From positions 1 to 18,704 of IMG/VR virus record IMGVR_UViG_3300000059_000086: DNA of 18,704 bases; one strand, 5' to 3'. The notes under the pieces are model-generated. The model had not been told where the DNA came from. It saw nothing but the letters and a program-made list of their open reading frames with translations, and did no database searches. Every line of letters starts with the position of its first letter. Positions within the stretch are counted from its first letter, which is position 1. Source of the stretch: a virus. Taxonomy: Duplodnaviria > Heunggongvirae > Uroviricota > Caudoviricetes. A program made the position numbers and the translations under genes. Below, piece by piece: positions 15,273-18,322 of this stretch.

Positions 15273-15972
15273 GGTCCGCCTCATGTTTATCAGCCACCAG
15301 CGGCAATAAAGCCTTAGCCATTTCATGAACCAACATGGCATCAATGACGCCTAGCGTATGGCCTGCCTTAATCTTTAATGCAGTTTCAAGATAGCTCCTT
15401 TCCAGAGTTGTGCTTACTCTTGGCTTCGGCACCTCTTGTGGATGAGTATCCAGACGGTTGCCAGATTCATAGGCTACCCGCAGCCAGTGCATGAATGTTT
15501 CAGTAGACACACAACCGCAGTCCAGGTCGATTTTTTCGCGTTGTTGCCCCAGCCATTGCTCAAAATTTAACTTATTGGATGCTTCAAGAGCCTCCTCGTA
15601 TTGTTTGCGCGAAATTATTTCCGTGTATTCCTCGCGATCAAGGTTACTTATCGGAAGCCTGACCTCAAGGCAAAAATTGCGCCCACGCGGGCTTTTCGCT
15701 GGATCAGAGCCAAAAGCAAAGAAACCATATGATGGTTCACAGCAGTCCTCTCTAACCATGCGACAATCGAGCACATCATCAGGCCACCCTCCACGCTTTG
15801 GCAGCTCCAGCACCAACAAGTCAATCAGCTTTATACTCTCACCGTCTTTGCAGGTTGCTAACGCTATTTGGGCAAGCTCCAATACCTCATCTGCCGTGTA
15901 TCCAGCGCCGTGTCCATACATTTCGATGCGTGCAATAATCTCTGATATGCGAAATTTAGTGATTTTAGTCAT
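15256..15972 (-). CDS. Hypothetical protein (about 239 aa)
   Basis: ATG at 15972 overlaps the upstream TGA (ATGA) with AAGGA RBS; no family recognised. Confidence 0.6.
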   Translation of the reverse strand: MTKITKFRISEIIARIEMYGHGAGYTADEVLELAQIALATCKDGESIKLIDLLVLELPKRGGWPDDVLDCRMVREDCCEPSYGFFAFGSDPAKSPRGRNFCLEVRLPISNLDREEYTEIISRKQYEEALEASNKLNFEQWLGQQREKIDLDCGCVSTETFMHWLRVAYESGNRLDTHPQEVPKPRVSTTLERSYLETALKIKAGHTLGVIDAMLVHEMAKALLPLVADKHEADHANES

Positions 15973-16178
15973 AGTTTTATTTCCTTGCATGGTTCGCCTT
16001 TACGGCATACAGCTACACGGTCATTTCTTACATTAACCACTGTCACCGTTCCGTCATCACATTGAATAACGATGAAAGGGTGTTCATTCTCTTTTGTGCA
16101 ATGTTGCTGTTCTCCAGCCATTGCAGCCGGAGGAGCAAATAGCGCCAGAACAAATGCCAGTCTTAAAAAATGCTTCAT
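15969..16178 (-). CDS. Small secreted Cys-containing protein (69 aa)
   Basis: Classic signal peptide MKHFLRLAFVLALFAPPAAMA; four Cys in the mature part. Confidence 0.6.
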   Translation of the reverse strand: MKHFLRLAFVLALFAPPAAMAGEQQHCTKENEHPFIVIQCDDGTVTVVNVRNDRVAVCRKGEPCKEIKL

Positions 16179-16185
16179 TTGGCCT

Positions 16186-16239
16186 TATCCGTTATCAAAA
16201 TTGGAATATCCGTTATCACGAGAGTGATATCCGTTATGA
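16186..16239. repeat. Three direct repeats of TATCCGTTAT(C/G)A at 20-bp spacing, immediately upstream of the secreted-protein gene
   Basis: Copies at 16187, 16207 and 16227 with exact 20-bp periodicity, in the promoter region of 15969-16178. Confidence 0.6.
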
Positions 16240-16257
16240 AGTGGGGAATAAGACCAC

Positions 16258-16434
16258 TTACCAATACCCTCCGCCTGACTCAAAGTTGGCAATAAGCCAG
16301 GCTGCGAAAAGAGTAACCCCGCTCCAAAAACCACACCCCACCGTACCCCATTTAACACCACCAGCTAATAAAATAAATAAACCGCAAAGGCATACAAACA
16401 AAAAAGTTATCCAAAATTTCTTTCTGTTTTTCAT
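16258..16434 (-). CDS. Unannotated small membrane protein (58 aa), coupled to the upstream gene
   Basis: ATG at 16434 overlaps the upstream TAA (TAATG); product MKNRKKFWITFLFVCLCGLFILLAGGVKWGTVGCGFWSGVTLFAAWLIANFESGGGYW has two hydrophobic stretches; below the ORF-track cutoff. Confidence 0.45.
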   Translation of the reverse strand: MKNRKKFWITFLFVCLCGLFILLAGGVKWGTVGCGFWSGVTLFAAWLIANFESGGGYW

Positions 16435-16733
16435 TATGGTTGACTCCAGTTATCTTCAATAACAATACTCAATCTTTGTAGCCATTCTGCTAATTTCAGC
16501 ATTGCTTCTCTTTCGCTTAAACCACGTGGGAAATCATCAAGCGATATTGTTGGCCTGAAATTCCCGAAATTATCCATTTCAACGGTCAGATTTTGCTCCA
16601 GCACGGTATTCCTTACGCGGCTATTGTGCCGGAGCAAATATACTGAGCGTGATTTATTGGTTTTGTGGTCTAGCTTATATTCGGTAAGTATCATATGGCT
16701 TCTGCCATGATTATTACCGCGCCACATAATCAC
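16434..16733 (-). CDS. Hypothetical protein (99 aa)
   Basis: Track ORF in an operon-like arrangement with the flanking minus-strand genes. Confidence 0.55.
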   Translation of the reverse strand: MIMWRGNNHGRSHMILTEYKLDHKTNKSRSVYLLRHNSRVRNTVLEQNLTVEMDNFGNFRPTISLDDFPRGLSEREAMLKLAEWLQRLSIVIEDNWSQP

Positions 16734-16739
16734 TCCGTG

Positions 16740-17141
16740 TTAATAAGAAAAGTAGACCGTTGCGACTCTGTTATATTGATCGAACGAAATAGCATTTACT
16801 TCATAGCTGGTGGGTATCTTTTCGCCAAGAATGTAACCAGGCCATGATTTCCACGGAATTTCTGCTCGTTCGTCATGCCACACTGCGCAACCAAGAGAAC
16901 CGACCGTCTCTCCATACCGTTTTCCGCAAGTAACAAAGCCTATATTTGGCTTATCTTGCGTGACTGCTACAGTGGTAGTATTTGCGGATGCATTGATTGC
17001 AGTGCGTTGCTCCTGCTCGCTTGCGGCTGAGGCGCTAATTGCTGCCGTTGTTGCGGCGGTTGCAACAATAACCGATGCATGTGATAAATGGCAGGCAGAT
17101 AACATTGCCAGAAAAATAATAGTTCTCCGAAATTTAGCCAT
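16740..17141 (-). CDS. Secreted hypothetical protein (about 133 aa)
   Basis: Start at MAKFRRTIIFLAMLSACHLSHA (signal peptide) with AAGGG RBS; the longer track ORF has an unlikely N-terminal extension. Confidence 0.55.
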   Translation of the reverse strand: MAKFRRTIIFLAMLSACHLSHASVIVATAATTAAISASAASEQEQRTAINASANTTTVAVTQDKPNIGFVTCGKRYGETVGSLGCAVWHDERAEIPWKSWPGYILGEKIPTSYEVNAISFDQYNRVATVYFSY

Positions 17142-17317
17142 TGATTTACCCTTTATTGCGAACATATTTAGCTGTGTGTTGCCGATGTGCTGAGATTTTC
17201 TTATATCAATTCCACGCGCTCTGCTAACGAGCAATCCAAATAATCTTCCGGATGCTTGTCGGTGTTATTAATGATGCGAATCCTCAAATATTTTCACCTT
17301 TGAGGATAAGTTGCAGG

Positions 17318-18322
17318 TTAGCCACGGTTAACCTCCTGCGGCGGTGCTGGTAGTGGCATCCAGTGAGTTGCCTGCCCAAGAGCATTACCCGGACTAACTG
17401 TTATACCTCCGCGTCGGAACGTGCTTCCGATATAGCGTGCGGAATATATTAATGGCCCAGCCTCGCTATCGATATTCACCGAAATAAGCACGTTCTGGCC
17501 CTTTTCAGGCATTCGCTCACTACAGCTTATCCAACCATCCGGAATTACCGGATAGTTGCCAGCCAGTCTACGCAAAACAGCCTTAACAGCCTCAATACGG
17601 TCATCATCGCAACTTTCCAGCGTATCTATGCGATCGAGCATGATGATGGCGTTATCAATATCAGGATTGCCGGTCCACTCATTACCGCGATTGGATTCGG
17701 CAGCCTGGTTGCCGTGTACTGTTTGATTCTCAGCTTTACCCAGTCTGTCGTTGCTGCATGAATGCCCTTCCAGCCAGGCCAATGCTTGTCGCATGAAATA
17801 CGCAATGTGTTTGCCGTGGTAATCGTCTTCATTGATGTGAAAAGCGATACTGCGGATATATTCAATTGCGTTTTCAATGGCCTCCGGTGTTATCGGCGCT
17901 GACATATTTTGATTTTGGAGTGCCAAGACGCGGCAGGCATCCTCTACGCCTTTAACTGCATCTGCGCAGTAGTTATAGCGATTGCATTCCACTAACTTCT
18001 GCTTGAGATTTTCAATTGATTGCGCGACATCAGCCTGTATTACCGGCGCTGGCGGTGCCATGTAAAGCGGAGTGACATGTACGACAGAACCAAGTGTCTC
18101 ATGTATCCGAACCCATGTGTCTTTCTCTGCACAGTCACGGTAAATAATAGAGGCTGAGTCCTGACCGTCTTTTGTGATTGTGACCTGCCATGCCACCGGT
18201 TCAGCTTCCAGCGAGGCTAACGCTATTTCATAAGCCCGGCGCTCAATATTGTCTCGCACGTCCAGGCTGCCTATGCGCTCTTTGATTTCTTTAATCAGTT
18301 CTTTGTCGGTTACAGTGGTCAT
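17318..18322 (-). CDS. Phage protein with a C-terminal DUF551-like domain (334 aa)
   Basis: C-terminal blocks DGWISCSERMPEKGQNVLI and THWMPLP resemble the DUF551 signature common in enterobacterial phage proteins. Confidence 0.6.
   Translation of the reverse strand: MTTVTDKELIKEIKERIGSLDVRDNIERRAYEIALASLEAEPVAWQVTITKDGQDSASIIYRDCAEKDTWVRIHETLGSVVHVTPLYMAPPAPVIQADVAQSIENLKQKLVECNRYNYCADAVKGVEDACRVLALQNQNMSAPITPEAIENAIEYIRSIAFHINEDDYHGKHIAYFMRQALAWLEGHSCSNDRLGKAENQTVHGNQAAESNRGNEWTGNPDIDNAIIMLDRIDTLESCDDDRIEAVKAVLRRLAGNYPVIPDGWISCSERMPEKGQNVLISVNIDSEAGPLIYSARYIGSTFRRGGITVSPGNALGQATHWMPLPAPPQEVNRG

What the first reader, a model, noticed from the sequence alone, without database searches (positions are those of the whole stretch)
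16186..16239. Three direct repeats at exact 20-bp spacing in the promoter of a secreted-protein gene
TATCCGTTATCA, TATCCGTTATCA and TATCCGTTATGA occur at 16187, 16207 and 16227, between the 58-aa membrane-protein gene and the start of the 69-aa secreted-protein gene. Two-turn periodicity suggests cooperative binding of a regulator on one helix face (iteron-like or activator sites). I cannot assign the binding protein.
Basis: seen in the sequence. Interest (0 to 1): 0.5.

Follow-up and report, generated by a model that had tools for sequence, protein, structure and literature searches.

The report
Stranded phage repeat cassette between genes
The three repeats are real, but they are a stray copy of a 21-base repeat cassette that temperate enterobacterial phages carry mostly inside genes; it sits at a recombination joint inside an operon, and nothing shows it is a promoter or an origin-type site.

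Summary
Three copies of TATCCGTTATSA lie at 16186, 16207 and 16228. The spacing is 21 bp, not 20. They fill most of the 79-bp gap between a 58-aa and a 69-aa gene, both on the minus strand, in a P1-like phage-plasmid. No sigma-70 promoter is predicted there. The 12-mer occurs nowhere else in a complete sister plasmid, and that plasmid's real iterons are unrelated.

The same 12-mer at 21-bp phasing occurs in other phages. In Pantoea and other prophage genes it is read on the gene strand as ATA-ACG-GAT, giving 'ITD' heptad linkers between protein domains. In PacA-like terminase genes it lies in the opposite orientation and encodes an 'SVMTDDE' tail. In all these places it is present in some relatives and absent in others, and homology breakpoints fall exactly at its edges.

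In the window it arrived as a ~130-bp module together with a new signal peptide. Only 24 of 284 related plasmids have it. Its cores are 35/36 conserved against 10/18 for the spacers in a diverged Salmonella copy, so some constraint at the nucleic-acid level is likely.

Best reading: a portable repeat cassette at a mosaic joint, now an intercistronic leader. A protein-binding array remains a live rival.

The parts
16228..16239 (-). Repeat unit 1 on the gene strand: TCATAACGGATA (plus strand TATCCGTTATGA)
16207..16218 (-). Repeat unit 2 on the gene strand: TGATAACGGATA
16186..16197 (-). Repeat unit 3 on the gene strand: TGATAACGGATA. Its 3' end runs into an AAGG Shine-Dalgarno-like motif (16183-16186), 4 nt before the ATG
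   Evidence: read from the sequence
16198..16206 (-). 9-bp spacer between units 3 and 2. It has diverged in the Salmonella copy, probably with offsetting one-base indels (my reading by eye), while its length is kept
16219..16227 (-). 9-bp spacer between units 2 and 1; diverged in the Salmonella copy
16116..16243 (-). The mosaic module: CTTC, three repeats, the ATG and the signal-peptide codons (MKHFLRLAFVLALFAPPAAMA). It is present as a unit in three backgrounds (window, L002, L006). In L005 and L007 it is replaced by an unrelated signal peptide with no repeats
16175..16264 (-). Relic reading frame through the repeats: LVSGLIPHFITDITLVITDIPILITDKAK*. Its TGA overlaps the ATG of the 69-aa gene (ATGA). 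The frame is closed 35 codons upstream and has no conserved start or ribosome-binding site
15969..16178 (-). 69-aa signal-peptide protein gene (phrog_20764, unknown function). Only its first 21 codons belong to the module
16258..16434 (-). 58-aa membrane-protein ORF upstream of the repeats. It is not part of the module: it is replaced by another gene in L006 and reduced to a 12-codon stub in L007 and L008

Best explanation
The three repeats are a stranded copy of a portable repeat cassette with a 21-bp (7-codon) period and a TGATAACGGATA core. The cassette circulates among temperate phages of Enterobacterales.

Shown:
- Elsewhere the cassette lies in frame inside genes, as an '(M/V/L)ITD(S/N)xx' interdomain linker, or in the opposite orientation as an 'SVMTDDE' C-terminal tail.
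- It is present in some close relatives and absent in others.
- Homology breakpoints fall exactly at its edges.
- In this plasmid lineage it is part of a ~130-bp module (three units plus a new signal-peptide-coding 5' end) that is present in three backgrounds.
- It lies in an intercistronic gap of a co-directional operon, with no predicted promoter and no second copy in the genome.

Inferred:
- The module replaced an arrangement in which the start of the 69-aa gene overlapped the stop of the upstream gene.
- The relic ITD frame still ends in a TGA that overlaps the ATG, so the repeats are the 3' tail of a lost donor gene.
- Today they serve as the untranslated leader that carries the ribosome-binding region (AAGG) of the 69-aa gene.
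- The conserved cores act as short shared homology patches at which modules are exchanged, not as sites for a dedicated transcription regulator.
For: - Same 12-mer at 21-bp phasing inside ORFs of other phages, read as ITD heptads.
- In a Pantoea prophage family, 13 of 113 members carry 1-3 units inserted exactly between ...ILEQQE and RGEGWIEWGGG. Most members have no insert, and 4 have decayed versions.
- A PacA-like terminase (phrog_1711; 33% identical to the plasmid's PacA over the main aligned stretch) carries the same DNA in reverse orientation as a C-terminal add-on.
- Breakpoints at the edges: homology between the window, L002 and L006 starts at CTTCATAACGG. Homology between L040 and L060/L101/L106/L355 ends right after the last ACGGATA.
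- L005 and L007 lack the repeats and have another signal peptide.
- The module is the only blastn segment shared by three repeat-bearing plasmids and absent from a repeat-free sister plasmid.
- It is rare: 24 of 284 related plasmids and 20 of 5426 E. coli genomes, all on plasmids.
- No promoter on the gene strand.
- No RNA structure beyond shuffled controls and no Rfam family.
- The relic frame ends in ATGA.
Against: - In the non-coding Salmonella copy the cores are 35/36 identical. The spacers are 10/18, the signal-peptide codons 46/63 and the mature part 64/76 (Fisher p = 3e-4 for cores against spacers). A functionless scar should not show this. It fits recognition sites better than homology patches.
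- The core is the same in two coding frames, in both orientations and in non-coding DNA, which points to a DNA-level reason I could not identify.
- No intact donor gene (ITD tail followed by the MKHFLRL gene) was found.
- A 12-bp patch is short for homologous recombination.
- The collection of cassettes was biased, because it required two exact cores.
Confidence: 0.42

Rival explanations
1. DNA-binding array. Three identically phased sites on one helix face bind monomers of an unidentified sequence-specific protein of host or core-phage origin. This would resemble iterons or AraC/XylS-type direct repeats. It would affect expression of the 69-aa gene or some other DNA transaction.
For: - Cores 35/36 against spacers 10/18, with the 21-bp spacing kept, in a non-coding context.
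- The core is invariant across families whose spacers are unrelated, in both orientations and in different frames.
- Phasing is at two helical turns.
- Substitutions in the 'free' third units are not concentrated at synonymous sites: I count 3 non-synonymous and 1 synonymous among the units listed.
Against: - No second site in 91.7 kb or in two other repeat-bearing plasmids.
- Unrelated to the plasmid's own iterons.
- No promoter to act on.
- No co-varying gene.
- Sporadic presence among close relatives, and decayed copies exist.
- No published site matches the sequence.
Confidence: 0.28
2. RNA-level translational control. On the polycistronic mRNA each unit presents ACGGAU. A CsrA/RsmA-type GGA-binding protein bridging sites 21 nt apart would occlude the ribosome-binding region of the 69-aa gene.
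For: - Three ACGGA motifs 21 nt apart, the last one abutting AAGG and the AUG.
- The genes are co-transcribed, so the repeats are in RNA.
- CsrA dimers are known to bridge GGA sites 10-63 nt apart, and ACGGAU is the core of the RsmE site in hcnA (from memory, not tested here).
Against: - No stable hairpins presenting GGA in loops, and no fold better than shuffled controls (z = -1.06 for the window, +1.65 for L006).
- The conserved block is 12 nt or more, longer than a CsrA site needs.
- The terminase copies put the reverse complement in the RNA.
- In L006 the AAGG is lost (AATG).
Confidence: 0.12
3. The repeats are translated. They would form a short leader ORF (a GTG-started 14-aa or TTG-started 28-aa 'ITD' peptide) whose stop overlaps the ATG and couples translation into the 69-aa gene. 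Alternatively they would be reached by a frameshift from the upstream gene.
For: - The ITD frame is open through all three units and ends in ATGA in the window, L002 and L006.
- The single core change in L006 (GAT to GAC) is synonymous in that frame.
Against: - No conserved start codon or ribosome-binding site. The TTG start is absent in L002, and in L006 a TAG lies three codons upstream of the first unit.
- The frame is closed 35 codons upstream.
- The spacers differ by what look like offsetting indels and mostly non-synonymous changes (my reading).
- The upstream gene differs between backgrounds.
Confidence: 0.08

Closest known systems
Plasmid and phage iterons, especially the lambda O-type arrangement where iterons lie inside the initiator gene and encode its interdomain linker (from memory)
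   Same: Direct repeats with a conserved core and variable spacer at about two helical turns. In relatives the array lies inside a gene and encodes an interdomain linker.
   Different: Not next to or inside a replication gene. The plasmid's real iterons are a different 21-mer around repB. No other copy in the genome. The carrier genes are small DUF551/PF26207-type proteins of unknown function and a terminase, not initiators.
PeSL mobile regulatory cassettes of T4-type phages (PMC2839356, PMC4122927)
   Same: A short conserved sequence found at the borders of insertions, deletions and replacements between closely related phage genomes, and proposed to mediate modular shuffling.
   Different: By their published names, PeSLs are promoter-plus-stem-loop (promoter-terminator) motifs; from memory, they occur many times per genome in intergenic DNA. 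This cassette has no predicted promoter or hairpin, is single-copy per genome and is mostly coding.
AraC/XylS-family direct-repeat operators, such as araI1-I2 and the XylS sites at 21-bp spacing (from memory)
   Same: Asymmetric sites repeated head to tail at 21 bp.
   Different: No adjacent promoter, no candidate regulator, and no sequence match to known sites.
CsrA/RsmA-controlled mRNA leaders (from memory)
   Same: Several GGA motifs upstream of and next to the ribosome-binding site.
   Different: No hairpin presentation. The conserved block is longer than a CsrA site needs. The same DNA occurs in antisense orientation elsewhere.
In-frame 21-bp tandem repeats (heptad repeats that vary in copy number) in phage proteins
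   Same: The period is a multiple of three, the copy number varies from 1 to 4, and the repeat sits in linkers and tails.
   Different: Units share only a 12-bp core with unrelated spacers. The same DNA is used in two frames and orientations and in non-coding DNA. In the window it is not part of any gene.

Membership tests
Iteron array of a replicon | Tandem direct repeats with a conserved core at roughly 21-22 bp spacing | tested here: met
   Three units at 21 bp
Iteron array of a replicon | Same sequence as the repeats at the element's origin, and adjacent to or inside its rep gene | tested here: not met
   The sister plasmid's iterons are AGGTGTAAGATTTGCCCTCAA around repB, about 39 kb away. 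The 12-mer is found nowhere else in that plasmid.
Iteron array of a replicon | Bound by the initiator protein | not testable with these tools
   Needs gel-shift or footprinting experiments
Activator-dependent sigma-70 promoter | Recognisable -10/-35 hexamers on the gene strand next to the sites | tested here: not met
   No promoter-like site on the minus strand in 15800-17400. By eye, the best hexamers inside the repeats are weak.
Activator-dependent sigma-70 promoter | A transcription start downstream of the sites | not testable with these tools
   Needs 5' RACE or differential RNA-seq. The gene layout suggests read-through from upstream.
Activator-dependent sigma-70 promoter | A cognate regulator, often linked or co-varying with the sites | tested here: not met
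   The module itself is the only segment specific to repeat-bearing plasmids.
CsrA/RsmA-regulated leader | Two or more GGA motifs 10-63 nt apart in the leader, one at the Shine-Dalgarno sequence | tested here: inconclusive
   Three ACGGA motifs 21 nt apart. The last one abuts AAGG in the window but AATG in L006.
CsrA/RsmA-regulated leader | GGA presented in hairpin loops | tested here: not met
   No fold better than shuffled controls, and no structure shared by the window and L006.
In-frame heptad coding repeat (linker cassette) | The period is a multiple of three and the frame is open through the repeat | tested here: met
   21 bp; the ITD frame is open through all units.
In-frame heptad coding repeat (linker cassette) | The repeat is continuous with a real gene on both sides | tested here: not met
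   Not met in the window: the frame is closed 35 codons upstream, has no conserved start, and the upstream gene is in another frame. It is met in relatives.
Mosaic-junction cassette (PeSL-like) | Lies at the borders of insertions, deletions or replacements between close relatives | tested here: met
Mosaic-junction cassette (PeSL-like) | Carries a promoter and a stem-loop, and occurs many times per genome | tested here: not met
Any Rfam RNA family | A covariance-model match | tested here: not met
   Only a chance mir-33 hit at E = 0.3

The most novel reading that the evidence does not exclude
TGATAACGGATA arrays at 21-bp phasing are a previously undescribed portable cis-acting DNA element of temperate enterobacterial phages. 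A conserved host or core-phage protein would recognise them at the DNA level. They would be tolerated wherever a reading frame allows: interdomain linkers, C-terminal tails and intergenic gaps. This would resemble the way lambda's iterons are embedded in the linker-coding part of gene O. The window's triple would then be a functional site array.
Probability: 0.25. Interest if true: 0.65.

Novelty: new variant of a known kind. Interest (0 to 1): 0.4.

Why it matters
If the cassette is only a recombination joint, it is a concrete, traceable example of how short shared sequences let phages and phage-plasmids swap gene parts, here a signal peptide. It also warns against reading intergenic direct repeats as operators. 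If the cores are real recognition sites, they would define a new cis element shared by P1-like phage-plasmids, lambdoid Pantoea prophages and a PacA-type terminase gene, with an unknown binding factor that could be fished out with a 63-bp probe.

Tried and rejected
- Promoter: no sigma-70-like site on the gene strand.
- Iterons of the plasmid's own Rep: a different sequence and place.
- A regulon or second site: none in three complete repeat-bearing plasmids.
- A co-varying regulator gene: none; only the module itself is specific.
- Structured RNA or a known RNA family: none.
- tRNA or attachment-site link in L055: no tRNA gene found.
- Intact donor gene for the module: not found in viral or metagenome contigs.
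- Degenerate codon scan (ATH-ACN-GAY x3), meant to test codon choice without bias: swamped by unrelated simple tandem repeats.
- Literature search for the 12-mer: only primers.
- By eye and from memory I compared the core with DnaA boxes, IHF, Fur, H-NS, ArcA, PhoP, OmpR, NarL, AraC, loxP, Mu and Tn7 end sites, Ter and Type I restriction sites. None fits convincingly.
- I first thought that group A and the terminase arrays share an absolute genome orientation. I dropped this after seeing that pacA and the accessory operon are co-directional in the IncY plasmid but opposed in the p0111-type plasmid.
- Marine and other metagenome hits (L333, L354, L334 and others) are unrelated 7-bp or 21-bp tandem repeats in chromosomal intergenic DNA.

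Full report
**Observation.** The window carries TATCCGTTATCA at 16186-16197 and 16207-16218, and TATCCGTTATGA at 16228-16239. The start-to-start spacing is 21 bp, not the 20 bp reported, and two of the reported starts are off by one. No other copy with fewer than two mismatches exists in the window. The two-mismatch hits are at chance level (5 found, 2.4 expected). The genes here are on the minus strand. On that strand the units read TCATAACGGATA, TGATAACGGATA, TGATAACGGATA. They fill most of the 79-bp gap between the stop of a 58-aa membrane ORF (16258-16434) and the ATG of a 69-aa signal-peptide ORF (15969-16178). The last unit ends 7 nt before the ATG and runs into an AAGG.

**Context.** The region is 95-98% identical to ~90-kb non-mobilizable plasmids of E. 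coli, Shigella and Salmonella. These plasmids carry P1-type genes: pacase A, Ref, Icd, a lytic replication protein, phd/doc and a Cre-like recombinase. They also carry a RepB-type replicon and ParM. They are therefore P1-like phage-plasmids (background: PMC7969092, PMC9603915). The repeats lie in a long run of small co-directional genes with overlapping or abutting stops and starts (ead/Ea22-like, DUF551 and others), so the layout is that of an operon.

- The promoter scan finds no sigma-70-like site on the gene strand between 15800 and 17400.
- In the complete sister plasmid NZ_CP104667.1 the 12-mer occurs only at this locus.
- That plasmid's real iterons are seven copies of AGGTGTAAGATTTGCCCTCAA, at 22-bp spacing in the main cluster, around repB about 39 kb away.
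- Two more repeat-bearing plasmids also have the triple as their only cluster.
- The leader RNA does not fold better than shuffled sequence in the window or in the Salmonella homologue (z = -1.06 and +1.65).
- Rfam has nothing for the region.
- The literature library holds the sequence only in unrelated primers.

**What the repeat is.** Scans of viral contigs for two cores at 21-bp spacing returned the same locus in P1-like contigs, and also the same 12-mer in quite different places.

- Group B: inside genes of other prophages. On the gene strand the core is read ATA-ACG-GAT, giving heptads such as EMITDSQPVITDSAEMITDSE that lie between two protein domains.
- A protein search with one such Pantoea brenneri protein gave 113 homologues. 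Most read ...ILEQQERGEGWIEWGGG.... Thirteen have one to three ITD heptads inserted exactly between EQQE and RGEG, and four have decayed versions (MTTDNSEVVTDS, STTDTY).
- DNA fetched for nine of these proteins, which were chosen by protein homology and not by DNA, shows ATA for every Ile in the units, ACG for every Thr, and GAT (occasionally GAC) for Asp.
- Group C: a homologue of the P1 PacA terminase subunit (phrog_1711; 33% identical over the main aligned stretch to the plasmid's PacA). It carries the same DNA in the opposite orientation, and TCC-GTT-ATG encodes a C-terminal tail ...ISVMSDDESVMSDDESVMTD... beyond the end of the family profile. The 15-mer TATCCGTTATGACCG is shared between these terminase copies and the Pantoea arrays.
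- Two further copies (L055, L207) are non-coding or out of phase, with 22-bp and 19-bp spacings.

The unit is therefore a DNA cassette that appears in two reading frames, in both orientations and in non-coding DNA, and always as an add-on.

**Mosaic structure at the window locus.** Alignment A1 and the raw comparisons give the following picture.
- The window, an E. marmotae plasmid (L002) and a true IncY P1-type Salmonella plasmid (L006) share a module. It runs from CTTC-ATAACGGATA through the three units, the ATG and the 21 signal-peptide codons, and ends at GGAGAACAGCA.
- Upstream of the module, L006 has a different gene.
- In E. albertii (L005) and E. coli (L007, L008) plasmids the mature part of the 69-aa protein is conserved. 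The repeats are absent there, the signal peptide is unrelated, and in L005 the start codon overlaps the upstream stop (ATGGTAA).
- In L002 the module is 96-97% identical to the window while both flanks are 71-74% identical.
- A whole-plasmid comparison shows that the module (49255-49377 of NZ_CP104667.1) is the only blastn segment shared by three repeat-bearing plasmids and missing from a repeat-free sister plasmid.
- Only 24 of the 284 plasmids that match the neighbourhood carry the module. So do 20 of 5426 complete E. coli genomes, always on plasmids.

Breakpoints at cassette edges recur elsewhere. L040 is homologous to L060, L101, L106 and L355 up to and including the last GATAACGGATA and then jumps to a distal part of the gene, so one deletion endpoint lies at the core.

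**The relic frame.** Read in the ITD frame, the window gives LVSGLIPHFITDITLVITDIPILITDKAK*, and its TGA overlaps the ATG of the 69-aa gene. That ATGA junction is kept in L002 and L006. The frame is closed 35 codons upstream. Its only possible starts (TTG for 28 aa, GTG for 14 aa) lack a convincing ribosome-binding site and are not conserved. In L006 a TAG lies three codons before the first unit. I read this as the 3' tail of a lost upstream gene whose stop was coupled to the MKHFLRL... gene. I did not find an intact donor in the viral or metagenome collections.

**Is there constraint?** Between the window and L006 the three cores are 35/36 identical. The two spacers are 10/18, the adjacent signal-peptide codons 46/63 and the mature part 64/76 (Fisher p = 3e-4 for cores against spacers). 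One spacer seems to differ by offsetting one-base indels, so the 21-bp period is kept. This is not what a neutral scar predicts.

Across families the cores are nearly invariant while the spacers are unrelated. That collection required two exact cores, so only the 'free' third units are informative. By my count, five of nine are exact and four carry one change each (three non-synonymous and one synonymous in the ITD frame). Conservation is therefore not concentrated at protein-relevant positions.

Against strong constraint, decayed copies exist in coding contexts and the cassette is sporadic among close relatives.

**Explanation.** What is shown:
- The repeat is a copy of a portable 21-bp cassette.
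- It sits at a mosaic joint and came with a new signal peptide.
- It lies inside an operon without a predicted promoter.
- It is not an iteron of this replicon.

What is inferred:
- It is the stranded tail of a donor gene.
- It now serves as the intercistronic leader that carries the ribosome-binding region of the 69-aa gene.
- Its cores act as short shared patches at which modules are exchanged.

I give this 0.42. The main rival, at 0.28, is that the cores are recognition sites for an unidentified DNA-binding protein. This fits the core-versus-spacer footprint and the independence from frame and orientation. It lacks a promoter, a partner protein, a second site and a consistent genomic position. 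A CsrA-type RNA mechanism gets 0.12: there are three ACGGA motifs 21 nt apart next to the ribosome-binding site, but no hairpins, a conserved block that is too long, and antisense copies elsewhere. A translated leader peptide gets 0.08.

**Comparison with known systems.** The array looks like iterons, and in its coding relatives like the iterons embedded in the linker-coding part of lambda gene O (from memory). It fails the tested membership features. It behaves like the PeSL cassettes that mark shuffling borders in T4-type phages (PMC2839356, PMC4122927), but it has no promoter or stem-loop and is single-copy. I therefore file it as a new variant of a known kind, a short conserved sequence at a phage mosaic junction, and not as a member of any named family.

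**Verdict.** The repeat belongs to a wider, apparently undescribed cassette family whose DNA-level conservation remains unexplained. Interest is moderate (0.4). It would rise if a binding factor were found.

Noticed in passing
L007 1270-1330, L008 1770-1830, window 16258-16434: In repeat-free sister plasmids the 58-aa membrane gene is reduced to a 12-codon stub (MKNRKKDCYGNI*) that overlaps the start of the 69-aa gene. The small membrane gene is therefore itself present in some close relatives and absent in others.
   Followed up: partly
Proteins P0001-P0113, e.g. P0019, P0049, P0058, P0073: In the Pantoea prophage family (PF26207, Phage_phiTE_015) the junction ...ILEQQE | RGEGWIEWGGG is a hot spot. 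Several unrelated modules are inserted there (the ITD cassette, a CxxC...CxC zinc-ribbon-like module, helical segments), often flanked by a duplicated EQQER.
   Followed up: partly
L030 4124-4210, L090 4028-4100, L191, L194, L202, L205: PacA-like small terminase genes of 87-93-kb contigs end in two to four 'SVM(T/S)DDE' heptads encoded by the reverse complement of the same 12-mer, just before the next gene's ATG. Whether this tail matters for packaging is unknown.
   Followed up: partly
L330 9963-10059, 10329, 10885, 11131 (NZ_CP104667.1): The real iterons of the sister plasmid: seven copies of AGGTGTAAGATTTGCCCTCAA, at 22-bp spacing in the main cluster, flanking and inside the repB gene.
   Followed up: yes
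L055 3277-3467: A non-coding copy of the cassette (spacings 21 and 22 bp) is flanked by 16-nt palindromes CGGATTTCAAATCCGG (two exact copies and one degenerate copy), reminiscent of REP-type elements. No tRNA gene is present.
   Followed up: partly
L344 6839-6890: A two-unit cassette is directly followed by GCTGGTGG, the E. coli Chi sequence. This may be coincidence.
   Followed up: no
window 16094-16462 (+) and 16185-16361 (-): Long spurious ORFs (122 aa and 58 aa) run through the repeats because the core is open in five of six frames. The sixth frame reads TGA-TAA, a double stop. Gene callers could mis-annotate this stretch.
   Followed up: partly
L334, L337, L340, L343, L346, L348, L353 (metagenome contigs): The 12-mer is nearly two copies of the heptamer TTATCNG. 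Unrelated metagenome contigs carry long tandem arrays of that heptamer. A marine chromosomal intergenic region (L354 4390-4470) has a 21-bp tandem repeat with the same 12-mer. I judge these unrelated to the phage cassette.
   Followed up: partly
L002 3140-3400 compared with window 16040-16300: In the E. marmotae plasmid the ~130-bp module is 96-97% identical to the window, while the flanking 58-aa gene and the mature part of the 69-aa gene are only 71-74% identical. This indicates a very short recent exchange tract.
   Followed up: yes
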